Assembly: GCA_938083445.1 (NCBI GenBank)
Contig: CALKCP010000001.1
Span: 22,141 to 86,140 of the forward strand
Source of the DNA: an uncultured Ulvibacter sp.
Lineage (GTDB): Bacteria; Bacteroidota; Bacteroidia; Flavobacteriales; Flavobacteriaceae
Reading direction: 5' to 3'
Length of the DNA stretch: 64,000 nt
The translations under genes and the position numbers were made by a program. Numbering within the stretch: position 1 is the first letter of the stretch; each line of letters begins with the position of its first letter. The notes beneath the pieces are model-generated. The model worked only from the letters and a program-made list of their open reading frames with translations, was not told the origin of the DNA and searched no databases. Positions 8,320-46,379 of this stretch are shown here, piece by piece.

Positions 8320-11300
8320 TTAGATTCCCTTTTTGTTATTTGGCGAAACGAATTGGACAGGTAAATTATCGTCTGTTACAGCGGGTAACGCTTCTTCAGA
8401 CTCCAATGTTAGCTTTTTATGAAAGAGCTTGTTTACTAATTCGCTAAAGGTGTCAAAATTGACGGAATACGTGAGCCCAACCCCTTGCTCAAAGGTTTGA
8501 TCTTCACCAATAAATTGCAAATCTGCTTCACGATTAAAAAATTTCATTCTTAAACTACCATCCTCGTTTACAAGCCACTGAACCTCAATATCACCAGCAA
8601 TAGTCGTGTCGGTTGACCCTCCAACGGGCACCCCTACCTTCCCATTAATTAAAAGGCGTTCACTTATTTGAGTTGATATTGTTATCCCCAATCTATCTGA
8701 AGTTTCTTGATTTGGAGTTCTGTTTCCAGCAGAATAATCCAACCCTACTCGAAACTTCCCATCTTCGTCTGCAAAAAGATCATTCACCATCCCCGAAACG
8801 CGCTGTGCTAAAGTTCCGGAAAAGGTGTTAGAACTTTGATAATTATCGTTTACAAAAGAACCGGTTGCAAGCAAAAACAGTGCTTGTTTCTGATTCTGTT
8901 CTTGACTTTGGAGTTTGTATTCTAATTCACTTCGTACTGTTGAACTTACTTTCGGAAAACCAATATTAAAATTGAGGTCAGGTTGTATAATTTCACCTTT
9001 CAAATCTACAATAACCTCCACAGGTATATCTCGATTAACTGAGGGATTGTCTAGTAAAGTAGCCGGATTTGCATCCAAATTATATTTCGCACTAATATTA
9101 AGCCTCGCTCTCTCTGGGGCACCTTCCCAGACAATAAAGCCCCCTCCTACCACATCAATATCCTTTTGAATAATACCTCCATATCTAAAATCGTAGGATC
9201 CTTCGATTACTGTAAACTCGCCCCACATCTGAAATTTTCCCAGTGTGTTAATACGAATTAAGAGTGTACCATCTCCCCTTCCTTTAAGTGTCGAATTGTT
9301 TACTTTATCAACCACAACCTCTACCTCGGCTTTATTATTTATATCCAAATCGAAGTTCAGTGACAAGCCTTTAATTTCTCTTGAAACAAAGGGGTCACCA
9401 CTAATTATAGCTTGTTTCTGTTTAGGTGATAAAAACGTGATAAAAGAATCTTCTCCAATTGTTTCGGCATCACTTAATGGAATTTTGAAGGTCGTTCCTT
9501 CTTCTGTTGTAGCAGTAACGTCTATAACCAATTCATCTATCGGGCCTAAAATGTCTGCCGAACCGCTAATGAATGCTGTTCCATAGTATAGTGCTTCATC
9601 GTCGGGCGGGGTATTTAAAACAAGCAGTCGCTCTGGCGCTTCAATATGTAAGTTCAATTCCCAATCACTAAAATTTTCATGGGTAGCATTTCCAAAGAAA
9701 GTCCCTTTTGTTTTAAACTGAGAGTCGGTAATTGTAACATTTCCAATCTCTAGCTTGTTTTTAGTCACTAAAATTTCTGCCTTGTTTTCAATTTCAAAAT
9801 CTGTATTAATCTCAACAACCCTTAAACCACTATTTTCAAGAGAAAAGTTGCCTCGTATCTCTGGCGAGCCATAGTCTCCTGTAACTTTTGCTTTGCCAGA
9901 AACCAATCCTCTTATGTCTGTAATAACTTCCGCTCCAAAGGGGCTAAATGCACGCATATTGAATTCATTCAACGCTACATCTACATCAAGATTAGAACTG
10001 TTTTTTGAAACATCAATACTACCTAACGCCTCAATTGACTTCACTTGATCGTTAATAAGAGTGGAGTTAATAGAATATCTCGTTAGATCCTCATTTCCAG
10101 AAACCAGCAAACTAAAATCTCCAAAGGCTATGTCGTTTATAAGCACACTATCAATGCGAACCACCGAACTGGGATAGTATCGTTTGTTTTTCTGAACAAG
10201 ATTAAATTTCCCATTCAGATTCCCTTCAAGTCTAAGACTATCAACTGTTGGAATCAAATTTCCAATATTTACGTCATTAAAACGCATCCTCAGGTTCTTA
10301 TAGGTAGAATCCCTAATGGTTCCTGCAAAATGAATGATTTCTTTGTTGTGATTTAAAACTAAGGAATCGACTCGAACCGTATTAAAATTATCATCAAAAA
10401 CAACTTTATTATAACGGTTATTATGCTCATTTAAGAACCAGATATTTTCTTTATAGGTGATATCTGATTTTTTTACACCAACAACCGATTTCCCCTCTGG
10501 ATTGATCGTGTGATACAGCGATAAATTAAACAAGTCTTCTTTCTTTTTACCTCCATTAAATTCAGAACGGATGTACAGCGTATCATTTAATGTCTTATTT
10601 ATCAAACTAACATCCTTCAGATTATAAACGCCTGTATACACCGAATCGATGGATACGTAGGTATTGAACAACGGATTGTCGTTATCAACTTGAATATTTA
10701 ACTTGGAAAGATAATTGTCAAAAAGCAGTAACTCAGGAGATTTGAAGTTTAATTTAAACTTCGATTCATCAGAAAAAACAGAGCCCTTAATCCTAGTGTT
10801 TTCACCAAATTCTAATTGCGGCACAAAGAGTTCCACAATTTTATTATAAATAACGAATTCATAATCTATGTATTGATTGCTCGTTACTTCCTTTGGTATA
10901 AAATTGGCATATATGCTGGCAATTCCATTTCGAAAGAGACTTGGAATGTCTTTTAATAAAAATTCACCGCTAATTTCTCCGTTAATAATATCGGGGGATG
11001 TTACTTCAATAGTTCTAATTTTCGAATCAAAAGATGAGATGATTTTTAGATCATCAAAATAAAAATTATCTCGTTCATTTTGATAAAAAGTCTCACTTAG
11101 GCTTATGCTCCCTTCGGCGTCTTCAAAAGTGGTTCCATCCATATCCATAACAACCTTCCCTGCGAATACAGAAATACTATCTCGCTTTACTAGGTTTAAT
11201 TTGTTCAGCTCAGCGAAGCTAATATTGGCTTCAAAATCATATTGATTAAAATCATTAGAAACATCAATTAGGCCGACAAAGTCCATTTTTAAATTTGGGT

Positions 11301-17590: not shown

Positions 17591-17675
17591 GGAGAGTTGC
17601 CAGAGTGGTTAATGGAGCAGTTTGCTAAACTGTCGACGGGTAACTGTCGCGTGGGTTCGAATCCCACACTCTCCG
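17591..17675 (+). tRNA. tRNA-Ser(GCT)
   Basis: GGAGAGT/ACTCTCC acceptor stem, GCAGT-TTGCTAA-ACTGT anticodon arm, long variable arm, GGTTCGAATCC T-loop. Confidence 0.96.
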
Positions 17676-17711
17676 CAATTTTGAATACTATTTTTATTCA
17701 ACAAACACCAT

Positions 17712-17786
17712 CGGGGTGTAGCGTAGCCCGGTTATCGCGCCACGTTTGGGACGTGGAGGCCGCAGGTTCGAATCCTGCCACCCCGA
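17712..17786 (+). tRNA. tRNA-Pro(TGG)
   Basis: CGGGGTG/CACCCCG acceptor stem, CCACG-TTTGGGA-CGTGG anticodon arm, GGTTCGAATCC. Confidence 0.96.
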
Positions 17787-17791
17787 CAAAA

Positions 17792-17827
17792 TTAAATGAT
17801 GCGTTTTTATAAAAACACATCATTTAA
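17792..17827. terminator. Near-perfect 36-bp palindrome after tRNA-Pro (terminator or processing hairpin)
   Basis: TTAAATGATG-C-GTTTTT-AT-AAAAAC-A-CATCATTTAA. Confidence 0.5.
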
Positions 17828-17883
17828 AAATATAAAAGGAACATTGGCTTACATCGTTACTTTTAAAATAAACACCCTTAAAT

Positions 17884-17957
17884 GGGCTCGTAGCTCAGCT
17901 GGATAGAGCACCTCCCTTCTAAGGAGGCGGTCATAGGTTCGAATCCTATCGGGCTCA
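17884..17957 (+). tRNA. tRNA-Arg(TCT)
   Basis: GGGCTCG/CGGGCTC acceptor stem, CCTCC-CTTCTAA-GGAGG anticodon arm, GGTTCGAATCC. Confidence 0.96.
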
Positions 17958-33297: not shown

Positions 33298-34848
33298 TTA
33301 TGAAGGTTCTTCTTGAGTTTCTTCTATTGGATCTGGTTCTTGTTCAAACAAGGCCAAGTAGGCTTTTCCAATAGCGTTACTAATATCACTTGCCATCAAT
33401 GACTCAAATCCAATTTCTTGAGTGATCAGGTTTCCTGCGCTTCCGTGCAAATAAACACCCAATACAGCCGCTATCAGAGGCTCATAGCCTTGAGATAGTA
33501 ATCCGCAAATCACCCCCGACAATACATCGCCGCTACCTGCAGTTGCCATTCCTGGATTTCCGGACGAATTTATAAAAAGTGTATCATCTCTAACAATCAT
33601 ACTGTTCGCTCCCTTAACAACGACGATAACCTCATATTTTCGAGAAAATTCTTTCACTTTTCTAAGTCGATCGTAGTCATTTGTCCATGTTCCAATAAGA
33701 CGTTCTAGCTCCATTAAATGGGGCGTAAGAATAGAGTTCTTTGGAATTATTTTCAATAAAGAAGTTTCTATAGAAATACAGTTCAGTGCGTCTGCATCAA
33801 GAACCATTGGTGATGTGGTTTTCTTTAACAAATTCTCCAAAGCAACTATGGTTTCAGAATCTGTTCCAATACCCATGCCAATCGCAATAACCTTCGGCTC
33901 AAAATCTACAGAAATTGATGTGATAGAAGTTTCATTGGTATCTGTGATGACCATCGCTTCTGGTAATGCCGTTTGTAAAATTGAATACCCACATTTCGGA
34001 ATAAAACAACTCACAAGACCGGCTCCTGCTCTAAAAGCACCGTTCCCAGCTAAAATAACTGCCCCTATCTTACCATAACTACCCCCAATGATCAAGGCAT
34101 GACCATAATTCCCTTTGTGAGTAAACTTCTCTCGTTGTTTATAAAACGTTTGTGCCTCTGTTTTTGTAATTAGATTTGCTAAGGGTTCTGTCTTTAGCAG
34201 ATAGTCAGGGTCCAAGCCCACATCCAACACTTCAAAGTAGGGTACTAATTTTCCAGTATCGGGTAAAAAGAAAGAAAGCTTTGGCGCCTGGAATGTGAGG
34301 GTGTGATTTGCCTTAAGTATTGCATCTAGATCTTCCTGCGGAGCGTTCGCATACAAACCACAGGGCATGTCAATCGATAATTTAAAAGATTTCAAAGCAT
34401 TTAAATAGTGGACCAACTTCAATACCCAACCATCTAAGCATCTATTTAATCCAATACCAAAAATAGCATCGATAATAATATCATCTTCTTCAATTTTAGG
34501 AAAATCTTTTTCAGAAGTCAATAATACAGGCCACGAATTGCTTACGTTCTTTATCCTGTCATAATTGATCAGAAAATTACTAGACCGTTTATCGCTGCAG
34601 TTTACGACAAACATATGTACGTTATAGCCACTCTCAATAAGCAGACGGCCAACAACCAATCCATCACCCCCATTGTTCCCAATACCGCAAAAGATATGAA
34701 TTGGGACTTGAGCTCCTTGCATACGATGATGCAGCCAATTAAAAACTTGACTTCCTGCTCTTTCCATCAAATCGGCGCTGGAAATTTGCTGTTTTTCAGT
34801 CGTAATTTTGTCTGCCTCGTTTAATTGTTCCGAAGAAAATATTTTCAT
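33298..34848 (-). CDS. nnr: Bifunctional NAD(P)H-hydrate epimerase/dehydratase
   Basis: LMERAG, GNNGGDG, HKGNYG, DADAL, TPHLME, GMATAGSGDVL. Confidence 0.95.
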   Translation of the reverse strand: MKIFSSEQLNEADKITTEKQQISSADLMERAGSQVFNWLHHRMQGAQVPIHIFCGIGNNGGDGLVVGRLLIESGYNVHMFVVNCSDKRSSNFLINYDRIKNVSNSWPVLLTSEKDFPKIEEDDIIIDAIFGIGLNRCLDGWVLKLVHYLNALKSFKLSIDMPCGLYANAPQEDLDAILKANHTLTFQAPKLSFFLPDTGKLVPYFEVLDVGLDPDYLLKTEPLANLITKTEAQTFYKQREKFTHKGNYGHALIIGGSYGKIGAVILAGNGAFRAGAGLVSCFIPKCGYSILQTALPEAMVITDTNETSITSISVDFEPKVIAIGMGIGTDSETIVALENLLKKTTSPMVLDADALNCISIETSLLKIIPKNSILTPHLMELERLIGTWTNDYDRLRKVKEFSRKYEVIVVVKGANSMIVRDDTLFINSSGNPGMATAGSGDVLSGVICGLLSQGYEPLIAAVLGVYLHGSAGNLITQEIGFESLMASDISNAIGKAYLALFEQEPDPIEETQEEPS

Positions 34849-35085
34849 ATAAAGTGATATTATTTAATGCTCAGTTGCGTAAAAATAATACTTTTACGCC
34901 TTTAATACGATGAAAAGAAAAATCTTCCATATTAATTTTAGTTTTGAAAACACCATTTTTTGGAGTGCTTCAACAAACCGCGCTATTACCCCCGTCGGGG
35001 TATCTATTTAAACATATCATCTTAAGTTTATTTTTCTTTTACTGAAAAAAGAGAATACATTATTATTCAATTTACAAGTACATAT

Positions 35086-37524
35086 ATGAAAGTTTTAAAA
35101 TTTGGAGGAACGTCTGTAGGAAGCGTTGAAAATATTGAGAAAGTAATTTCAATTATAGAGGTAGCTTCTCAAGAGAATAAAATTGCTGTTGTAGTTTCGG
35201 CTTTTGGAGGTATCACGGACCAATTAATCCAGGCGGGAGAACTGGCAGCCGCAAAGGATTCTAGTTATGTAGCCTTATTTAATAGTATCAAAGAACGGCA
35301 TCTGTTGGCAGTATCTAAACTGCAAATCGAAGAAAAAAGTCCCAAGCTTCTAGAGAATATCCTCAATAGGTTAGAAGAATTACTAAAGGGAGTATTTTAT
35401 ATCAATGAATTATCCCCAAGAACAAAAGATCGATTGGTCGCCTTCGGTGAATTATGTTCTTCCCTAATAATTGCAGAGGCGATGCAAGCCAAAGGGCTCG
35501 ATTCAAAAAGAAAAAATGCTACCGAATTAATCATAACACAGACTGAAGGAACGCTAAATTCGGTGAATCTAAAAGTATCGAATAACAAAATAGTGTCTTA
35601 TTTTTCAGACAATAAGGAAAGGATCACAGTTCTTCCTGGTTTTGTATCTGCAGATGAGTTAGGGGAAGTTACAACTTTAGGAAGAGGCGGATCCGATTTC
35701 TCAGCTGCACTTATCGCAGCAGCAACAAATGCTTCAGAATTACAAATATGGACCGACGTGAGCGGAATGTACACCGCCAACCCCTCCATAGTGCAACAAG
35801 CGCGTCCAATTAAAAACATATCTTATCAAGAAGCTATGGAGTTATCACATTTTGGGGCGAAAGTTCTGTACCCGCCAACGATTGTTCCTGTAATGTTAAA
35901 AAACATACCAATTGTTATTAAAAATACTTTTAAGCCCGATGATAGAGGCACTCGAATTGCAAATGGGAATTTAAAGACTAGAAAGTCGGTAAAAGGTATA
36001 AGCAATATCGAAAACATTGCTTTACTAACGCTTGAAGGAAACGGAATGGTTGGGGTGCCTGGAATTTCAAAACGGTTATTTGAAACCCTTTCACAGCAAT
36101 TTATAAATATAGTCTTTATAACTCAGGCCTCTAGTGAGCATAGCATTTGTCTTGGCGTTCTTAAAAGTGATGCAGAAATCGCAAGTAAAGCTGTTAATAC
36201 GGCGTTTGAATATGAAATTCAATTGGGTAAAATAGATCCACTGATAGTTGAAACCGATCTTTCGATAATCGCTCTCGTTGGTGATAACATGAAAAACCAT
36301 CAGGGAATTAGTGGGAAAATGTTTAGCAAGCTGGGCAAAAACAATATCAATATTAGAGCAATAGCTCAGGGAGCCAGTGAAAAAAACATCTCTGCGGTAA
36401 TAGATAAGAAGGATGTTAAAAAAGCGCTTAATGTTTTACACGAGCGTTTTTTCGAAGATCAGTTTAAACAAATCAATTTATATATCGCAGGCGTTGGAAA
36501 TGTTGGTGAAAAACTTTTAAACCAAATAGCTGAGCAAAGTCAATATTTAAAAGAAAAACTTCGTTTAAATGTAAGAGTTCTTGGAATCACAAATTCTAGA
36601 ACAATGTATTTCGATTCTGAAGGAATTCTACTCGAAAATTGGAAAGAAAAACTTTCGGGAGGTTCAAAAAGTAGTATCCAAGGTTTTCACGATAAAATTC
36701 TCGAGGATAACAGACGAAATAGCGTGTTTGTTGATGTTACGGCCAACTCTGAAGTCGCAAGTAGTTACGCTTCATACTTGAAAAAAAGTATCGCAGTTGT
36801 AGCTTGTAATAAAATAGCCTGCTCTTCAGATTATACGAAATATGAAGAGTTAAAAAGCCTATCGACCGAGTATAACGCACCTTTTTTATTCGAAACAAAT
36901 GTTGGTGCGGGATTACCTATAATTGACACTTTGAGCAATCTAATGGCCTCGGGTGATGAAATTATTAGCATTAAGGCAGTTCTTTCTGGAAGTTTAAATT
37001 TTGTTTTTAACAATTATAAAGAAGGGGTTTCTTTTCACGATGTCGTGAAGCAAGCTCAGGCTGAAGGTTATACAGAACCAGATCCAAGAATTGACCTTAG
37101 CGGAGTAGACGTAGCTCGAAAGATTTTAATTTTAGCTAGGGAAAGCGGATTAAAGATGGATTTAAATGACGTTACTAACCTACCGTTTCTAACAAATAAA
37201 AACCTTGAAAGTAATACAGTTGATCATTTTTACGAAACATTAATAGAAGATGATTCACATTTTCAGCAGCTGCTAGCAACCGCGAATGAAAATGGCAGTC
37301 GACTTAAATATGTGGCTCAACTAGAAAATGGTAAATTGAAAGTTGGACTTGAAGAAGTACTTCCATCCCATCCTTTTTATAATTTAGAAGGGAAAGATAA
37401 TATTGTATTATTCTATACCAACAGATATCCCGAGCAGCCCCTTATCATTAAAGGTGCTGGTGCTGGTGGCGATGTAACTGCTTCTGGATTATTTTCAGAT
37501 ATTATACGAATGAGAACTTATTAA
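35086..37524 (+). CDS. thrA: Bifunctional aspartokinase/homoserine dehydrogenase I
   Basis: KFGGTSV, TLGRGGSD, two ACT domains, GVGNVG, ETNVGAGLP, GAGAGGDVTA. Confidence 0.97.
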   Translation: MKVLKFGGTSVGSVENIEKVISIIEVASQENKIAVVVSAFGGITDQLIQAGELAAAKDSSYVALFNSIKERHLLAVSKLQIEEKSPKLLENILNRLEELLKGVFYINELSPRTKDRLVAFGELCSSLIIAEAMQAKGLDSKRKNATELIITQTEGTLNSVNLKVSNNKIVSYFSDNKERITVLPGFVSADELGEVTTLGRGGSDFSAALIAAATNASELQIWTDVSGMYTANPSIVQQARPIKNISYQEAMELSHFGAKVLYPPTIVPVMLKNIPIVIKNTFKPDDRGTRIANGNLKTRKSVKGISNIENIALLTLEGNGMVGVPGISKRLFETLSQQFINIVFITQASSEHSICLGVLKSDAEIASKAVNTAFEYEIQLGKIDPLIVETDLSIIALVGDNMKNHQGISGKMFSKLGKNNINIRAIAQGASEKNISAVIDKKDVKKALNVLHERFFEDQFKQINLYIAGVGNVGEKLLNQIAEQSQYLKEKLRLNVRVLGITNSRTMYFDSEGILLENWKEKLSGGSKSSIQGFHDKILEDNRRNSVFVDVTANSEVASSYASYLKKSIAVVACNKIACSSDYTKYEELKSLSTEYNAPFLFETNVGAGLPIIDTLSNLMASGDEIISIKAVLSGSLNFVFNNYKEGVSFHDVVKQAQAEGYTEPDPRIDLSGVDVARKILILARESGLKMDLNDVTNLPFLTNKNLESNTVDHFYETLIEDDSHFQQLLATANENGSRLKYVAQLENGKLKVGLEEVLPSHPFYNLEGKDNIVLFYTNRYPEQPLIIKGAGAGGDVTASGLFSDIIRMRTY

Positions 37525-37525
37525 A

Positions 37526-37662
37526 ATGGAATAAAAGTGTTTTAACCTGCATCGATTGCCAACCTAAATTGTGAATTTGACGTTTTAGGGGTATCATTAG
37601 AGGGTATCGGAGATGAAATAACCCTTCGGAAAGTTCCACAAAAAGGTATAAAGATTACCAAT
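37526..37662 (+). pseudogene. thrB: Homoserine kinase 5' remnant
   Basis: Corrected frame reads ME-IKVF*PASIANLNCEFDVLGVSLEGIGDEITLRKVPQKGIKIT; 1-nt frameshift after ATG GA, in-frame TAA at 37543-37545, truncated after about 45 codons. Confidence 0.88.
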
Positions 37663-37694
37663 AAGGATATGATGCATAACTACGCCTTAATTTA

Positions 37695-37702
37695 TACATT
37701 TG
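37695..37702 (+). promoter_or_regulatory. -7 promoter element for gcvT
   Basis: TACATTTG matches TAnnTTTG, 22 nt upstream of the ATG. Confidence 0.6.
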
Positions 37703-37724
37703 TAAGCATAAAAAATGAATTAGA

Positions 37725-38807
37725 ATGAAAAATACGGCACTCACACATATACACGAAAGTTTAGACGCTAAATTGGTCCCTTTTGCGGGGTACAACATGC
37801 CAGTGTCATATGAAGGTATTAACCTAGAACACGAAACAGTTCGCAAGGCAGTTGGTGTTTTTGATGTTTCTCATATGGGAGAGTTTCTAATTGAAGGCCC
37901 AAATGCATTAGAGCTCATTCAAAAAGTAACTAGTAATGACGCTGCTAAATTGGTAGATGGGCAAGCACAGTATAGTTGTTTCCCTAATGACAAAGGAGGT
38001 ATTGTGGATGATCTCATTGTTTATCGCATGCATGATGACAAGTGGTTACTCGTTGTAAATGCATCCAATATAGAAAAAGATTGGGACTGGATTAGCAGTC
38101 ATAATACAATGGGTGCTAAAATGACGAATCTTTCTGAAGCATATTCATTGCTGGCAATACAAGGGCCTAAGGCTATCGAGGCGATGCAATCGTTGACTTC
38201 AGAAGACCTAAATAGCATTGGTTTTTACACCTTCAAAGTGTCAGATTTTGCGGGAATCAAGGATGTTATTATTAGTGCAACGGGCTATACCGGAAGTGGC
38301 GGTTTTGAAATTTACTGCAAGAACGGTGACGCAGAACACATTTGGAATAAGGTAATGGAAGTAGGTTCAGGTTTTGGAATAAAACCAATAGGTCTGGCTG
38401 CTCGCGACACACTACGACTGGAAATGGGATACTGTCTTTACGGAAACGACATTAATGATACCACCTCGCCTATCGAAGCTGGTTTGGGTTGGATTACGAA
38501 ATTTACAAAGGACTTTATAAATGCTGAAGGTCTTAAAAAAGAGAAAGAGCAGGGTCCCGAAAATAGGCTCATCGCTTTTGAATTAAATGAGCGCGGGATT
38601 CCAAGACAAGGCTATGACATTTTGGATGGTAGTGGTCATAAAATTGGCCTTGTAACAAGCGGAACCATGTCACCATCACTAGGCAAAGGTATTGGAATGG
38701 GATATGTGAAGCAGAATTTTAAAACTCCTGGAACTGAATTGCATATTCAAATTCGCAAGAAGGCTGTCCCAGCAACGGTTATCAAACTCCCATTTTACAA
38801 AGGTTAA
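37725..38807 (+). CDS. gcvT: Glycine cleavage system T protein
   Basis: [40 protein letters not shown]. Confidence 0.97.
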
Positions 38808-38809
38808 AC

Positions 38810-39652
38810 TTGAATAAAATTCTTATCCTTGGCGCTAGTGGCTTTATCGGTCGCAGTATTTACTTAGAGTTACAGTCATATTTTGATGTATTTGGAACCT
38901 ACTGCTCAAATGACAAAGACTATATAAACAATCAAGTTTACTTTAAATACTGCCTGGAAGAAGGGAAACTAGACACGATTCTTCAGACAGTCCAACCAGA
39001 TATAATTATTTCTTCACTTAAAGGGGATTATAAGCTCCAATTCGCAGCACATAGGCAATTATGTGACTATATAAGTGGCCATCGTGGTGCTCGAATTATC
39101 TATATATCATCGAAAAAGGTCTTTGATGGAAAGTACACCCTTCCCTCCTATGAGAATGATGAACCTCTGGCAGAAAGCGACTACGGATTGTTTAAGGTTT
39201 CTATAGAAAAAATGTTATCCAAACACATCCCTGTGCAAACCATTATTTTGCGGTTGCCCATGGTTTTAGGTTTTCATTCTCCACGAATACTCCAGCTTCG
39301 GCAGGCTATCAAGTACAAAGCCACTTTCGAAATTTACCCTAACTTAACAATTAGTGCTACTACTGTAGATAAAGTGGCGCAACAAATTCACTATATTATT
39401 AGCAAAAAATTAGACGGAATTTTTCACCTTGCTAGCGATGACATGGTTCATCATGATGATTTATTTAGAGATATCACTTCAAAAATTGGAGATAAAAAAC
39501 CTATCTTTAAAAATGTTTTTAGGAGAGATAAGAATGAATATTTAGCGATTCTTCCGAAGAAAAATAAATTGCCAAAACAGTATCGCATCAGTGTTGCTAA
39601 GGTCATCGAGGACAGCACACTAAGCGAAGAAATAACTACATTTAAAAATTAA
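38810..39652 (+). CDS. RmlD-like NAD(P)-dependent sugar-nucleotide reductase (extended SDR)
   Basis: GASGFIG, SSKKVFDG, YGLFK (YxxxK). Confidence 0.8.
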   Translation: MNKILILGASGFIGRSIYLELQSYFDVFGTYCSNDKDYINNQVYFKYCLEEGKLDTILQTVQPDIIISSLKGDYKLQFAAHRQLCDYISGHRGARIIYISSKKVFDGKYTLPSYENDEPLAESDYGLFKVSIEKMLSKHIPVQTIILRLPMVLGFHSPRILQLRQAIKYKATFEIYPNLTISATTVDKVAQQIHYIISKKLDGIFHLASDDMVHHDDLFRDITSKIGDKKPIFKNVFRRDKNEYLAILPKKNKLPKQYRISVAKVIEDSTLSEEITTFKN

Positions 39653-39656
39653 GAGT

Positions 39657-39938
39657 ATGAAAGCATTCACTGAGTTCGAAGTACAAGCACGAATGTCAAC
39701 GATAGACGGATGGGAATATAATGAAAATGCAATCCATACTTCTTTGGAGTTCAATGACTTTAAGGATGCCTTTTCAGTGATGACGCGCATCGCCTTTGAA
39801 GCTGAAAAACTAAACCACCACCCAGACTGGTCTAATGTTTATAAAACACTGAATATCACATTATCCACACACGATGCAGGTGGGTTAACTCAAAAAGATT
39901 TTGAATTGGCCAAGATTATTGATGCTTTGGTAAGTTAA
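39657..39938 (+). CDS. phhB: Pterin-4-alpha-carbinolamine dehydratase
   Basis: AEKLNHHPDW, LSTHDAGG. Confidence 0.92.
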   Translation: MKAFTEFEVQARMSTIDGWEYNENAIHTSLEFNDFKDAFSVMTRIAFEAEKLNHHPDWSNVYKTLNITLSTHDAGGLTQKDFELAKIIDALVS

Positions 39939-39995
39939 ATGTATCTGTGATGCATATTTTTATATTTTTGTTGAATAGATAAAAAATAATTTACA

Positions 39996-40709
39996 ATGGG
40001 AAGAGCTTTCGAATTTAGAAAAGCAAGAAAAATGAAGCGCTGGTCTGCCATGTCTAAGGCGTTTACACGTATTGGAAAAGACATCGTCATGGCGGTTAAA
40101 GATGGAGGGCCCGATCCCGACTCTAATTCGCGTCTTCGTGCAGTGATTCAGAATGCAAAGGCAGTAAATATGCCGAAAGACAATGTAGAACGAGCGATTA
40201 AAAAGGCAAGCGACAAAAGCTTAGGTGATTATAAAGAAATTATCTTTGAAGGGTATGCGCAGCATGGAATTGCCGTTCTCATTGAGACTGCTACAGATAA
40301 CAATACACGAACAGTCGCGAATGTGCGTATGTGTTTTAATAAAACTGATGGAAATTTAGGCACTTCAGGATCTGTAGTATTTATGTTTGATCATACGTGT
40401 AACTTTAGAGTGGATGGTGAAGGATTGGATTTAGAAGAATTAGAACTCGAATTAATTGACCACGGTATTGAAGAAATATTTGAAGATGAGGACGGTGTTT
40501 TAATCTATGCACCCTTTGAGAGTTTTGGTGACATTCAATCCTATTTAGAAAATGCAAATATTGAAATCTTGTCATCTGGATTTGAACGTATTCCTCAGGT
40601 TACCAAGAAGCTTTCAGAAGAACAGGCAGCCGATGTTGAAAAACTTTTAGAACGATTGGAAGAAGATGACGATGTTCAAAATGTATATCACACCATGCAG
40701 GAATCCTAA
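39996..40709 (+). CDS. yebC: YebC/PmpR family protein
   Basis: MGRAFEFRK, NMPKDNVERAI, EGYAQHG, TDNNTRT, DDDVQNVYH. Confidence 0.95.
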   Translation: MGRAFEFRKARKMKRWSAMSKAFTRIGKDIVMAVKDGGPDPDSNSRLRAVIQNAKAVNMPKDNVERAIKKASDKSLGDYKEIIFEGYAQHGIAVLIETATDNNTRTVANVRMCFNKTDGNLGTSGSVVFMFDHTCNFRVDGEGLDLEELELELIDHGIEEIFEDEDGVLIYAPFESFGDIQSYLENANIEILSSGFERIPQVTKKLSEEQAADVEKLLERLEEDDDVQNVYHTMQES

Positions 40710-40804: not shown

Positions 40805-41332
40805 CTAGGAATTCTTTCCTTCCATCCCTTTAAAAAAATTGCGAAGCTCCAGTTCATCCTTTTCAATATCGCCTGTCGGATAAAATTCTTTTCCTATAGA
40901 AATGGTTTTTGTGGGATAATCTAGTCCTATTGGAATGATAGGGACTTTGGATCGCTGTGCTATAAAATAGTAACCCGTTTTCCAGGTGTCTACTTTTTTT
41001 CTTGTTCCCTCTGGCGCGATAGCGAGTCGAAACTCATCTAAGCCATCATACACTTTTGAAATAGCTTCCACTTTGTTTTGAGCCTTACGTCTTTCCAAAG
41101 GCTCTCCCCCCATCCATTTAAAATACCATCCAATTGGCCAAGAAAAAAGCGCCTTTTTTCCAACAAAATTTATTTGAATTTTAAGAATGCGTCTCGTAAA
41201 TGAACAAATAATAAAATCGTAATTAGTCGTATGAGGAGCGACAATAAGTACCGATTTCTTTATACTTCTGTCAAAATCACCTTCAATCTTCCAACCTAGA
41301 ATAGTATGAAATATATACTTTGTGATAGACAT
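40805..41332 (-). CDS. 1-acyl-sn-glycerol-3-phosphate acyltransferase family
   Basis: APHTTNYD (HxxxxD), APEGTR. Confidence 0.88.
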   Translation of the reverse strand: MSITKYIFHTILGWKIEGDFDRSIKKSVLIVAPHTTNYDFIICSFTRRILKIQINFVGKKALFSWPIGWYFKWMGGEPLERRKAQNKVEAISKVYDGLDEFRLAIAPEGTRKKVDTWKTGYYFIAQRSKVPIIPIGLDYPTKTISIGKEFYPTGDIEKDELELRNFFKGMEGKNS

Positions 41333-41379
41333 AAATAAAGTTTGGTTAAAGATTACAATTTTTGGTTAAAGCGCTCAAT

Positions 41380-42129
41380 CTATCTCGGGTCTATATTCCC
41401 CTCTTTTAAGACTTTATTAGCCCGAATTAAGTCTTCAGGTGTGTCTATTGCAATTCCTTGTGTGTTTGAAATCTCCATTTTTATATTTTTACCGTATTCA
41501 AGATATCGGATGCATTCAATTTTTTCTGCGGCTTCAAGAGAACGCATTGGCAGCCGATAAAAATCGAGTATTGCCTGCTTTCTAAATGCGTAGATTCCTT
41601 TATGCTTATAATACTGCATAGGAGCATTTTTATCGCGAGGATACGGCACAGGCGAACGCGAAAAGTAGAGCGCAAAATTTTCCTTGTCAACAATTACTTT
41701 TACACAATTAGGGTCACTAATTTCTTTCCAATCGTAAATTTTGAACATAAGCGATGCTAAATCTATTTTATCGGCATCTTGTCCTTCAAAAACACCTAGT
41801 ACCTGCTCTAAATCTTCTTTGCTCGTAAATGGTTCATCTCCTTGCACATTTACCACAATGTCGACATCCATGTGTTCAACAGCCTCCGCAATGCGATCGC
41901 TACCACACTCGTGCTCCCTTATGCTCATTATAGCCTTCCCTCCATTTAATTCGATTTCTTGGAAAATCACTTCGCTATCGGTAACTACATATACTTCATC
42001 AAATAAACCGGTTGCCTTAGCGGCTTGATAGGTCCGAATAATTACGGTTTTGCCACCCAAATCTTGCATTAGTTTTCCGGGAAATCTGGATGCTCCATAT
42101 CGAGCAGGAATCATTGCTATTATCTTCAT
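41380..42129 (-). CDS. kdsB: 3-deoxy-manno-octulosonate cytidylyltransferase
   Basis: [41 protein letters not shown]. Confidence 0.95.
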
Positions 42130-42349
42130 ATACTAAATTAGCAGTTCATTATTAGATGTGAAAACTCGTATTAGGTTGCCTGTTTATAAAAGTTTTAAAT
42201 CGCATCGAATTACAAAAATTGCGCTTTTATACAAGACTGCCAAAAATAAGAAGAGCTTATACCTCGAAGACAGGTAATCTAATGGATTTTTTAGGGGATA
42301 TTTGTAACAAAGAATACCCTTAGACTACTTGAAAAAAATAAACACTACA

Positions 42350-45909: not shown

Positions 45910-45969
45910 GGACAACAGTACGTCATTGCCCTTTAAAAGGAATTCTCAAATGCAGTATAATTAAAAAAA

Positions 45970-46285
45970 GCAGGCCTATAAGCCGGATTCTGTCTCCGAA
46001 TTAACTTCGGAGCCTTATCATTTATCTAGCCCTAACATTACTATTAGAGTCTATCTGTCTACCCTCCTGCATCGGGCGGGAACCCTCAAGCACAGGTTTA
46101 CATGACATTTCACCGCATAGAGTTTACCTGGTTTCACTACAGCATGATCTGTACATTCTTTCTGTTGCACTGGTCCTAATCCCGATATTAAATCGAGTTG
46201 ACGGCCGTTAGCCGCTATGCATCCCTATGGTGTCCGGACTTTCCTCCCTTCTTAACGAATTAAGAACGACGATAAGGCGGCCTGC
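45970..46285 (-). ncRNA. rnpB: RNase P RNA
   Basis: Minus strand has GAGGAAAGTCCGGAC near the 5' end and ACAGAATCCGGCTTAT near the 3' end; terminal GCAGGCC/GGCCTGC P1 helix; TACTTTTG promoter element at 46291-46298. Confidence 0.96.
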
Positions 46286-46379
46286 TGTTGCAAAAGTAAC
46301 CAATGTTAATAAATACACTAAATTAGCGCAAGCTATTTTTTAAAAACTAGCTGTACATCTTTATATTTGTTTCACTTCT

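What the first reader, a model, noticed from the sequence alone, without database searches (positions are those of the whole stretch)
37526..37662. thrB reduced to a decayed stub and thrC missing: truncated threonine operon
Seen: 1 nt after the thrA stop lies a homoserine-kinase N-terminus with three lesions. These are a 1-nt deletion after ATG GA, TAA at codon 7 of the corrected frame, and Glu in place of the Gly of the NLxxGFD motif. Similarity ends after about 45 codons, and gcvT follows with its own promoter. thrA is intact. Inference: threonine synthesis was lost (possible Thr auxotrophy) while thrA was kept for Lys/DAP and Met precursors. The ORF track misses this completely.
Basis: partly seen in the sequence, partly recalled or inferred. 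Interest (0 to 1): 0.65.

Follow-up and report, generated by a model that had tools for sequence, protein, structure and literature searches.

The report
Deletion scar of threonine genes thrB-thrC
A widespread uncultured marine flavobacterium has recently lost its homoserine kinase and threonine synthase genes in one 2.07-kb deletion, leaving a decaying stub behind an intact thrA. It therefore probably depends on outside threonine, which is an ordinary kind of gene loss, here caught early.

Summary
One nucleotide after the intact thrA (35086..37524) lie the first 47 codons of thrB (37526..37663). They carry a 4-nt frameshifting deletion, TCA>TAA, and GGA>GAA at a glycine that is invariant in 80 of 80 relatives.

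Compared with the closest intact relative (ThrA 94% identical), a single deletion of about 2,066 bp removed the rest of thrB and nearly all of thrC. Contigs from 8 marine metagenome runs of 8 studies, plus a TARA scaffold, carry the same junction. This is not an assembly collapse.

All of about 158 related loci have thrA-thrB-thrC. The decay is young. thrA stayed under purifying selection after the loss.

New finding: ancestry switches at the junction. thrA plus the stub group with one neighbouring lineage, while gcvT and the other flanks do not. A recombination import therefore ended at, or inside, the deleted segment.

Threonine auxotrophy is a reasonable inference but is not shown, because the rest of the genome could not be searched. 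This is an ordinary gene-loss event, well documented here, of modest interest.

The parts
34849..35085 (+). thrA upstream leader. It is conserved in the clade, holds a 33-codon ORF (34910..35011) and a GC hairpin CCCCCGTCGGGG (34989..35000), and is retained in the window.
   Evidence: Alignment A2 has 81% mean column identity, and the hairpin is conserved as far as Ulvibacter. No Rfam family matches.
35086..37524 (+). thrA, bifunctional aspartate kinase / homoserine dehydrogenase I. It is intact (812 aa) and under purifying selection.
   Evidence: All Pfam domains are present. NCBIfam NF006959 scores 1027 bits against a cut-off of 726. dN/dS is 0.13 against L082, which carries the same deletion: 8 nonsynonymous to 17 synonymous changes, P 1.2e-6 against neutrality. 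RNA contigs lie on it.
37526..37663 (+). thrB remnant: the start codon plus codons matching residues 4-47 of intact ThrB.
   Evidence: tblastn E 8.6e-21, 95.5% identity to L083 ThrB. NF002288 E 5.9e-10. The left side of the joint matches L083 through position 8582.
37530..37532 (+). Site of the 4-nt frameshifting deletion. L083 reads ATGGAAGTAATAAAA and the window reads ATGGAATAAAA.
   Evidence: 'Left out 4' in contigs of X2, X3, X4, X9 and X16.
37543..37545 (+). Nonsense codon TAA, in place of TCA (Ser) in relatives.
   Evidence: Shared with L082.
37573..37575 (+). GAA (Glu) in place of GGA/GGC, the Gly of the C-G-F-D motif.
   Evidence: Gly is invariant in 80 of 80 relatives. The same motif is present in solved homoserine kinase 4p52.
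37664..37666 (+). Deletion joint: three letters, AGG, that fit neither side exactly.
   Evidence: read laying joint 8582->10649 on L083, 'skips 2066', with AGG between, in X3, X4, X9 and X16. The equivalent joint 12578->14649 on L002 skips 2070, in X1, X2, X5 and X17.
37667..37683 (+). thrC 3' relic: part of a Tyr codon, then Met-Met-His-Ser and the stop. Ser has changed to Asn, and the stop TAA has mutated to TAC.
   Evidence: Direct comparison with the thrC ends of L083, L085, L002 and L084.
37684..37724 (+). Conserved thrC-gcvT spacer with a Bacteroidota-type -7 box, TACATTTG, at 37695..37702. No terminator is present.
   Evidence: TAnnTTTG lies upstream of gcvT in 16 of 18 loci where thrC and gcvT are adjacent. 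No terminator-like site was found in 37300..38000.
37725..38807 (+). gcvT, glycine-cleavage aminomethyltransferase. It is intact.
   Evidence: Pfam GCV_T and GCV_T_C. NF001567 scores 461.8 bits against a cut-off of 300.

Best explanation
The region 37526..37683 is the scar of one deletion of about 2.07 kb. The deletion removed thrB from codon 48 onward and thrC up to its last four codons, in a lineage whose relatives all carry thrA-thrB-thrC-gcvT.

Shown here:
- The deletion is real, is shared by conspecific genomes from many ocean samples, and appears fixed.
- The remaining thrB piece is dead three times over (frameshift, stop, loss of an invariant Gly). It lacks every catalytic part of a GHMP kinase.
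- The decay is recent. Apart from the two disabling substitutions, the stub's amino-acid sequence still equals that of the nearest intact relative.
- thrA has stayed under purifying selection since the loss.

Inferred:
- The cell can still make aspartyl phosphate and homoserine through ThrA, for methionine and, via aspartate semialdehyde, for lysine/DAP.
- It cannot convert homoserine to threonine, so it takes threonine or threonine-containing peptides from seawater. This is a streamlining or 'Black Queen' type auxotrophy.

Origin of the deletion (partly shown):
- Ancestry changes at the joint. thrA plus the stub were imported by recombination from a lineage close to L083.
- The import ended at, or inside, the deleted segment.
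- Either the import itself made the deletion (a homologous anchor in thrA and an illegitimate downstream joint), or a later independent deletion removed the end of the imported tract.
For: Homology and lesions.

Synteny: thrB and thrC follow thrA in 80 of 80 species-representative genomes. They do so in all informative metagenome loci except L082, which is conspecific with the window (98.3% identical over 12.35 kb) and has the identical scar.

The junction is real:
- Single contigs span thrA, the stub and gcvT in X2, X3 and X5.
- The tool calls the same joint in X1, X2, X5 and X17 and in X3, X4, X9 and X16. That is 8 runs of 8 studies.
- About 20 runs hold the junction's 31-mers.

No second close copy: no contig at least 80-85% alike covers the thrB interior in X1, X5, X9 or X17 (X3, X4 and X16 show only short low-depth stretches there). 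Only short conserved thrC patches from other organisms appear.

Young decay:
- Changes shared by the window and L082 in the stub are 5 synonymous substitutions plus the two disabling ones.
- The window and L082 differ at 5 of 129 stub positions, against 38 of 3522 in thrA plus gcvT, Fisher p 0.017.

thrA under selection after the loss: 8 nonsynonymous to 17 synonymous differences between two deletion carriers, P 1.2e-6 against neutrality.

Ancestry switch:
- dS between window and L083 is 0.37 in thrA, against 0.69-1.3 in the flanking genes. dS between L083 and L085 is flat across the region.
- Window-L083 differences are 74 of 999 in the 1 kb before the joint and 147 of 998 in the 1 kb after it, p 1.6e-7. 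The control pair is unchanged, and the interaction p is 3e-5.
- The five-lineage distance matrices conflict between thrA and gcvT.

Context: auxotrophy in free-living taxa is associated with streamlining and is frequent in Bacteroidetes (PMC10665431). The window lineage shows other local deletions.
Against: - Only 64 kb of the genome was visible. A divergent paralogue or a horizontally acquired thrB/thrC elsewhere cannot be excluded.
- The genome-average nucleotide identity of this lineage to the references (about 83-86%) is close to the 80-85% threshold of the read test. A native relocated thrB could therefore have been missed.
- Logan contigs drop rare variants, so a minority intact allele cannot be excluded.
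- Genome-based auxotrophy calls are often wrong, notably for homoserine kinase (PMC5764234). No substitute for threonine synthase is known to me.
- The test for neutral evolution of the stub rests on 5 differences.
- The short repeat at the breakpoints (ATTGAAGG / ATTCAAGG) is no better than chance, occurring in 16% of random pairs.
- The coincidence between the end of the recombination tract and the joint is weak evidence for a coupled event, because the tract could have ended anywhere in the deleted 2 kb.
Confidence: 0.62

Rival explanations
1. The deletion is real, but the organism still makes threonine. A second thrB/thrC pair, or thrC plus a non-orthologous homoserine kinase, lies elsewhere in the genome and made the native copy redundant before it was lost.
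For: - Only 64 kb was searched.
- The read test cannot see copies below about 80-85% nucleotide identity.
- One X5 contig, of depth 24 against 28 for this organism, matches 116 nt of thrC at 80% identity and cannot be assigned to an organism.
- Missing-kinase gaps are often filled by unrelated kinases (PMC5764234).
Against: - In about 158 related loci the only thrBC seen is the one behind thrA.
- No contig resembling thrB was found in the X1, X5, X9 or X17 communities that carry this organism at 2-28x; X3, X4 and X16 show only short low-depth stretches inside thrB.
- No substitute for threonine synthase is known (own knowledge).
Confidence: 0.3
2. Assembly or binning artefact: thrB and thrC were collapsed out of the contig by misassembly.
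For: The Logan contig L001 ends 8 nt after the thrA stop, which at first looked like an assembly break at the locus.
Against: - That break is a SNP bubble (A/T at 37533).
- Independent contigs in 8 runs of 8 studies and a TARA scaffold carry the identical joint and the identical small lesions.
- The stub shows its own point mutations, which a collapse would not create.
Confidence: 0.01
3. The deletion is a strain-level polymorphism: an accessory loss in part of the species, with intact alleles common in other populations that cross-feed or recombine.
For: - Contigs hide minority variants.
- X3 shows low-depth sequence (2.9x) running a little past the left breakpoint into thrB.
- This lineage recombines with neighbouring lineages.
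Against: - Every contig that carries this lineage's thrA 3' end (over 98% identical) continues into the stub and gcvT.
- No loose ends are reported at 37660.
- The window and L082, 1.7% apart, share all lesions. The allele therefore predates their split.
Confidence: 0.07

Closest known systems
thrA-thrB-thrC(-gcvT) cluster of related Flavobacteriaceae, for example Ulvibacter litoralis DSM 16195 (NZ_FNBA01000002, L003), MAG JBLHIC010000009 (L002) and metagenome contig Ga0075467_10000076 (L083)
   Same: Same gene order on both sides. Same 1-nt thrA-thrB spacing. Same thrC-gcvT spacer with TACATTTG. ThrA is 72-94% identical.
   Different: The window lacks 2,066-2,070 bp: thrB codon 48 to thrC codon about 429. 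The residual thrB start is frameshifted, carries a stop, and has lost an invariant Gly.
Gene-loss auxotrophies of streamlined free-living bacteria. Examples are the SAR11 glycine/serine and reduced-sulphur requirements under the 'Black Queen' idea, and the survey in PMC10665431.
   Same: A free-living, widespread marine bacterium has lost a biosynthetic step whose product is available from the community. Other small deletions lie nearby.
   Different: Here the loss is caught young, with a recognisable scar and an intact sister lineage. The nutritional requirement itself is untested. I found no paper that names threonine for marine Flavobacteriaceae.
Apparent threonine-pathway gaps that are not auxotrophies (Price et al. 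2018, PMC5764234)
   Same: Canonical thrB is missing while thrA is present.
   Different: In those cases thrC is present and an unrelated kinase fills the gap. Here thrC is deleted as well, and a decaying remnant shows that the genes were lost rather than never present.
Homology-facilitated illegitimate recombination, described for naturally transformable bacteria such as Acinetobacter and Streptococcus (own knowledge, not checked in the paper library)
   Same: A donor-like tract (thrA plus the thrB 5' end) abuts a non-homologous joint on one side only. The joint has a few unassignable letters and a short imperfect repeat.
   Different: The tract may have ended anywhere inside the deleted 2 kb. 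The repeat is not better than chance. No donor sequence is available.

Membership tests
Homoserine kinase ThrB (GHMP kinase; NCBIfam NF002288 / TIGR00191) | Sequence homology to ThrB at the orthologous position, directly after thrA | tested here: met
   tblastn E 8.6e-21, 95.5% identity over residues 4-47. NF002288 E 5.9e-10.
Homoserine kinase ThrB (GHMP kinase; NCBIfam NF002288 / TIGR00191) | Full-length match above the curated cut-off, including the GHMP phosphate-binding loop and the C-terminal domain | tested here: not met
   38.7 bits against a cut-off of 194. Only model positions 1-42 of 303 are matched. There is no Pfam GHMP domain, and residues 48-308 are deleted.
Homoserine kinase ThrB (GHMP kinase; NCBIfam NF002288 / TIGR00191) | Open reading frame with the invariant N-terminal C-G-F-D glycine | tested here: not met
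   4-nt frameshift, TAA at 37543, and Gly>Glu at 37573-37575. Gly is invariant in 80 of 80 relatives.
Threonine synthase ThrC (TIGR00260) | Any ThrC-like coding sequence in the window | tested here: not met
   ThrC of L002, L083 and L003 gives no tblastn hit in 64 kb. Only a 17-nt 3' relic remains at 37667..37683.
Gene remnant / unitary pseudogene made by deletion | Orthologous position, with both ends of the lost segment recognisable | tested here: met
   The thrB 5' end and the thrC 3' end flank one joint. Gene order with L083 is otherwise colinear.
Gene remnant / unitary pseudogene made by deletion | Loss of selective constraint on the remnant | tested here: inconclusive
   5 of 129 differences between the window and L082, against 38 of 3522 in the flanking genes (p 0.017). 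2 of the 5 are nonsynonymous. SNPs are dense in metagenomes. The numbers are small.
Gene remnant / unitary pseudogene made by deletion | Present in independent samples of the lineage, not in a single assembly | tested here: met
   8 runs of 8 studies plus a TARA scaffold. Contigs cannot exclude rare intact alleles.
Threonine auxotroph | No thrB/thrC or functional substitute anywhere in the genome | not testable with these tools
The indirect test excludes only copies at least about 80-85% identical.
Threonine auxotroph | Growth requires external threonine | not testable with these tools
   Needs a culture.
Bifunctional aspartate kinase / homoserine dehydrogenase I (ThrA, NF006959) | Full-length match above the cut-off, with all domains, under purifying selection | tested here: met
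   1027 bits against a cut-off of 726. AA_kinase, ACT x2, NAD_binding_3 and Homoserine_dh are present. dN/dS is 0.07-0.13.
Homology-facilitated illegitimate recombination product | A donor-type tract on one side of the joint only | tested here: met
   Window-L083 divergence is 7.4% before the joint and 14.7% after it (p 1.6e-7), with the control pair unchanged. dS values are and the five-lineage conflict.
Homology-facilitated illegitimate recombination product | Microhomology at the illegitimate joint, and a tract end exactly at the joint | tested here: inconclusive
   A 7-of-8 repeat, ATTGAAGG/ATTCAAGG, occurs in 16% of random pairs. The position of the tract end within the deleted 2 kb cannot be known.

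The most novel reading that the evidence does not exclude
A cosmopolitan free-living marine flavobacterium became a threonine auxotroph very recently. It did so in a single event, in which DNA imported from a sister species recombined homologously in thrA and joined illegitimately at the end of thrC. The loss of the pathway would then be a by-product of inter-species recombination, not of slow decay. The allele then spread through the species while thrA was kept by selection.
Probability: 0.15. Interest if true: 0.5.

Novelty: new member of a known kind. Interest (0 to 1): 0.3.

Why it matters
- If the lineage truly needs external threonine, that is a concrete cultivation hint for an abundant uncultured marine Flavobacteriaceae population: add threonine or peptides.
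- It would also be a dated natural example of biosynthetic gene loss in a free-living bacterium. An intact sister lineage (94% ThrA identity) is available for comparison.
- The scar, the retained thrA and the ancestry switch at the joint make the locus a usable marker. It could track this population in metagenomes and help ask how such losses arise and spread.
- It does not reveal a new kind of system.

Tried and rejected
- Pfam on the read-through stub gave no hit. The first 47 residues lie outside the GHMP_kinases_N model. NCBIfam full-length models and direct comparison with relatives were used instead.
- Microhomology at the breakpoints: a 7-of-8 repeat was found, but the same is seen in 16% of random pairs, so it is dropped as evidence.
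- Polarising ThrA substitutions with L085 and L002 as outgroups was abandoned. The flanking genes show the window lineage is not sister to L083 genome-wide. This led to the recombination finding.
- Rfam gave nothing for the thrA leader or the stub.
- The terminator scan found nothing between thrA and gcvT.
- The sigma-70 promoter hits in that scan were ignored, because Bacteroidota use a different consensus.
- X17, a run labelled with an organism name, was tried as a possible isolate in order to search the whole genome. The bacterium is there at only about 2x depth, so it is not informative.
- Literature searches for threonine auxotrophy in marine Flavobacteriaceae or Prosiliicoccus found nothing relevant.
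- The taxon name of the window lineage could not be established. My guess that it belongs near 'Candidatus Prosiliicoccus' is untested.

Full report
WHAT IS IN THE SEQUENCE

The window is a chromosomal stretch of a marine member of the Flavobacteriaceae, with 37.3% G+C. It carries gyrA, a ClpB/ClpA-family Clp ATPase gene (below both curated cut-offs), tsaD, rsmE, a thiolase gene, hutH and similar genes.

thrA lies at 35086..37524 and is intact:
- It encodes 812 aa with AA_kinase, two ACT domains, NAD_binding_3 and Homoserine_dh.
- It scores 1027 bits on NCBIfam NF006959, against a cut-off of 726.

The thrA stop is at 37522-37524 and an ATG follows at 37526.
- In that frame the ATG is followed by GAA TAA.
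- The frame starting at 37528 reads GIKVF*PASIANLNCEFDVLGVSLEGIGDEITLRKVPQKGIKITN.
- gcvT starts at 37725.

IS IT MORE THAN CHANCE?

Yes.
- ThrB from the closest intact relative (L083) hits the 64-kb window once, at 37531..37662. Identity is 95.5% over residues 4-47, E 8.6e-21.
- ThrB from L002 gives E 8.8e-19.
- With the frameshift and stop read through, the 47-residue stub hits the curated homoserine kinase model NF002288. E is 5.9e-10, at model positions 1-42 of 303, and 38.7 bits against a cut-off of 194.
- Pfam sees nothing, because its GHMP domain starts further in.

THE LESIONS

I aligned the ThrB N-termini of 80 species-representative genomes and compared codon by codon with four close lineages.
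- (i) ATGGAAGTAATAAAA in relatives is ATGGAATAAAA here. This is a 4-nt loss (one codon plus one base), not 1 nt. It is called independently as 'left out 4' in metagenome contigs.
- (ii) TCA>TAA at 37543-37545. That residue is Ser in 77 of 80 relatives and Ala in 3.
- (iii) GGA>GAA at 37573-37575, the Gly of C-G-[FY]-D. It is invariant in 80 of 80 and present in solved homoserine kinase 4p52.
- (iv) Similarity to thrB ends at 37663.
Relatives read AT ATG ATG CAT AGC TAA, so Ser has become Asn and the stop has mutated to TAC. The conserved thrC-gcvT spacer follows.

No ThrC-like sequence exists elsewhere in the window.

ONE DELETION

Metagenome contigs were laid on the intact loci, and the tool called a single joint in every run tried.
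- On L002 the joint is 12578->14649, 'skips 2070', with 7 unassignable letters, in X1, X2, X5 and X17.
- On L083 the joint is 8582->10649, 'skips 2066', with AGG between, in X3, X4, X9 and X16.

The event removed thrB from codon 48 and thrC up to its last four codons.

An imperfect repeat, ATTGAAGG / ATTCAAGG, sits at the two breakpoints of intact relatives. A 7-of-8 match occurs in 16% of random window pairs, so it says nothing about mechanism.

NOT AN ARTEFACT, AND NOT A SINGLE GENOME

- About 20 marine metagenome runs from at least 9 studies hold 68-90% of the 31-mers of 37200..38000.
- Single contigs span thrA, the stub and gcvT in X2, X3 and X5.
- The joint and the 4-nt loss are found in 8 runs of 8 studies.
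- A TARA scaffold (L082) is 98.3% identical over 12.35 kb and carries the identical scar with all lesions.
- The Logan contig L001 stops 8 nt after thrA because of an A/T SNP bubble at 37533.

COMPARATIVE CONTEXT

- thrB and thrC follow thrA in all 80 species-representative loci, wherever the contig allows.
- They do so in all informative metagenome loci except L082.
- The nearest intact lineage, L083 (Ga0075467_10000076, ThrA 94% identical), has thrA-thrB-thrC-gcvT. It is otherwise colinear with the window.

AGE AND SELECTION

- In the stub, the changes shared by the window and L082 are five synonymous substitutions plus the two disabling ones. Otherwise the stub's 43 codons encode exactly the L083 protein. 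thrB was therefore under constraint until shortly before the window-L082 split.
- Since that split, the stub differs at 5 of 129 sites, 2 of them nonsynonymous. thrA plus gcvT differ at 38 of 3522 (Fisher p 0.017). Metagenomes show 7 variable sites within 75 nt of the stub. This fits neutral decay, but on small numbers.
- thrA differs between the two deletion carriers by 8 nonsynonymous and 17 synonymous changes. dN/dS is 0.13, and P is 1.2e-6 against neutral expectation. thrA has therefore been maintained by selection after the loss of thrBC.
- Metatranscriptome contigs lie on thrA. They also run from inside the stub across the joint into gcvT (X25 37615-37849, X26 37596-37790, X27 37596-37742). 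DNA carry-over cannot be excluded.

THE gcvT PROMOTER CLAIM

- TACATTTG at 37695..37702 fits TAnnTTTG, the Bacteroidota -7 consensus (own knowledge).
- The motif lies upstream of gcvT in 16 of 18 loci where thrC and gcvT are adjacent.
- There is no terminator-like site between thrA and gcvT.
- The RNA contigs start upstream of the box.

An own promoter is therefore plausible, but read-through from thrA is also likely. The same holds in intact relatives, where the spacer is only 40 nt.

A NEW OBSERVATION: ANCESTRY SWITCHES AT THE JOINT

- Synonymous divergence between the window and L083 is 0.37 in thrA. It is 0.69 in nnr, 0.87 in gcvT, 0.92 in the thioredoxin-like gene, 1.2 in hutH and 1.3 in yebC.
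- Over the same genes, L083-L085 divergence is flat: thrA 0.64, nnr 0.70, gcvT 0.71.
- Window-L083 differences number 74 of 999 in the 1 kb before the joint and 147 of 998 in the 1 kb after it (p 1.6e-7). For L083-L085 the counts are 122 of 1004 and 108 of 1000 (p 0.36). The interaction p is 3e-5.
- With a fifth lineage (L084), the window nests beside L083 in thrA, whereas in gcvT it is the most distant of the five.
- The upstream boundary is diffuse, at about 33,900-35,400.

The simplest reading is that thrA plus the 5' end of thrB were imported from an L083-like donor. The downstream end of that tract lies at, or inside, the deleted segment. Two scenarios fit:
- a coupled event, with a homologous anchor in thrA and an illegitimate joint at the thrC end; or
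- an ordinary import followed by an unrelated deletion.

I cannot separate these two. The second needs no special coincidence, because the tract could have ended anywhere in 2 kb.

CONSEQUENCE

Shown: this locus cannot make homoserine kinase or threonine synthase.

Inferred from the standard aspartate-family pathway: ThrA still supplies aspartyl phosphate and homoserine, for methionine and, via aspartate semialdehyde, for lysine/DAP. Homoserine can no longer be turned into threonine.

Whether the organism is auxotrophic depends on the rest of the genome, which I could not search.
- As an indirect test, no contig at least 80-85% identical to the thrB interior of L002 or L083 exists in X1, X5, X9 or X17, communities where this organism has 2-28x depth; X3, X4 and X16 show only short low-depth stretches there. 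Only short conserved thrC patches from other organisms appear.
- This lineage is only about 83-86% identical to those references genome-wide. A relocated native copy near the threshold, or a foreign copy, is therefore not excluded.
- Price et al. (PMC5764234) show that missing homoserine kinases are often false gaps. The loss of thrC is harder to bypass.
- Ramoneda et al. (PMC10665431) link auxotrophy in free-living taxa to streamlining and find it frequent in Bacteroidetes.

Consistent with streamlining, the window also lacks three items found in L002 and L003:
- a glutaminase gene;
- a DUF4126 gene;
- the Fe-ADH half of a KdsB-FeADH fusion, which has left a terminal relic.

VERDICT

The operon truncation is real, recent and population-wide. 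The auxotrophy is likely (about 0.6) but unproven. This is a well-resolved instance of a known phenomenon, and the recombination breakpoint at the scar is its only unusual feature.

Noticed in passing
window 33900..37663 versus 37664..40709: Phylogenetic affinity changes at the deletion joint. thrA and the stub are closest to L083 (91% nt, dS 0.37). gcvT and all other flanking genes of the window are the most divergent among five related lineages (dS 0.7-1.3). This implies a recombination import whose downstream end lies at, or within, the deleted segment.
   Followed up: yes
window 41332..41402 (minus strand, downstream of kdsB 41380..42129): In L002 and L003, kdsB is fused to an iron-containing alcohol dehydrogenase domain (604-609 aa). 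In the window, kdsB is 249 aa. Only a weak match (8 of 14 residues, E 3.1) to the last ~14 codons of the Fe-ADH part lies after its stop, possibly a second internal deletion scar of about 1.1 kb.
   Followed up: partly
window 42130..42349: A 192-aa DUF4126 gene lies between kdsB and the helicase gene in L002. It is absent from the window, and no relic was detectable.
   Followed up: partly
window 38807..38810: A 304-aa glutaminase gene sits between gcvT and the RmlD-like gene in L002, L003 and about half of the related loci. It is absent here, and also absent in L083 and L085, so this loss is older than the thrBC deletion and not specific to this lineage.
   Followed up: yes
window 34849..35085: The thrA 5' leader is strongly conserved within the clade. 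It holds a 33-codon ORF (34910..35011) and a GC hairpin CCCCCGTCGGGG (34989..35000), which also occurs in Ulvibacter. No Rfam family matches. It may be an attenuator-type leader and is still present although thrBC are gone.
   Followed up: partly
window 37596..37849: Metatranscriptome contigs from three runs run from inside the dead stub across the joint into gcvT. This suggests read-through transcription from thrA into gcvT. Two contigs start at 37596, next to the polymorphic site 37595, so that position is an assembly break and not a transcript start.
   Followed up: partly
window 37533, 37560, 37579, 37581, 37594, 37595, 37606: A cluster of polymorphic sites within the stub is seen in metagenome contigs. 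It splits the Logan assemblies into 57-71-nt unitigs there and explains why contig L001 ends at 37532.
   Followed up: yes
runs X17 and X30: The junction sequence also occurs at low depth in two runs that are labelled with a (coded) organism name, not as metagenomes. This hints that the bacterium accompanies some cultured or sampled eukaryote.
   Followed up: no
window 17591..17957 and 45963..46288: Three tRNA genes lie in a row on the plus strand, and a bacterial class A RNase P RNA lies on the minus strand. These are ordinary features.
   Followed up: no
L057 15248..19004: In this related metagenome contig, gcvT, the RmlD-like gene, the pterin dehydratase gene and yebC all give only partial tblastn matches. 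Either several genes are damaged or the contig is of poor quality.
   Followed up: no
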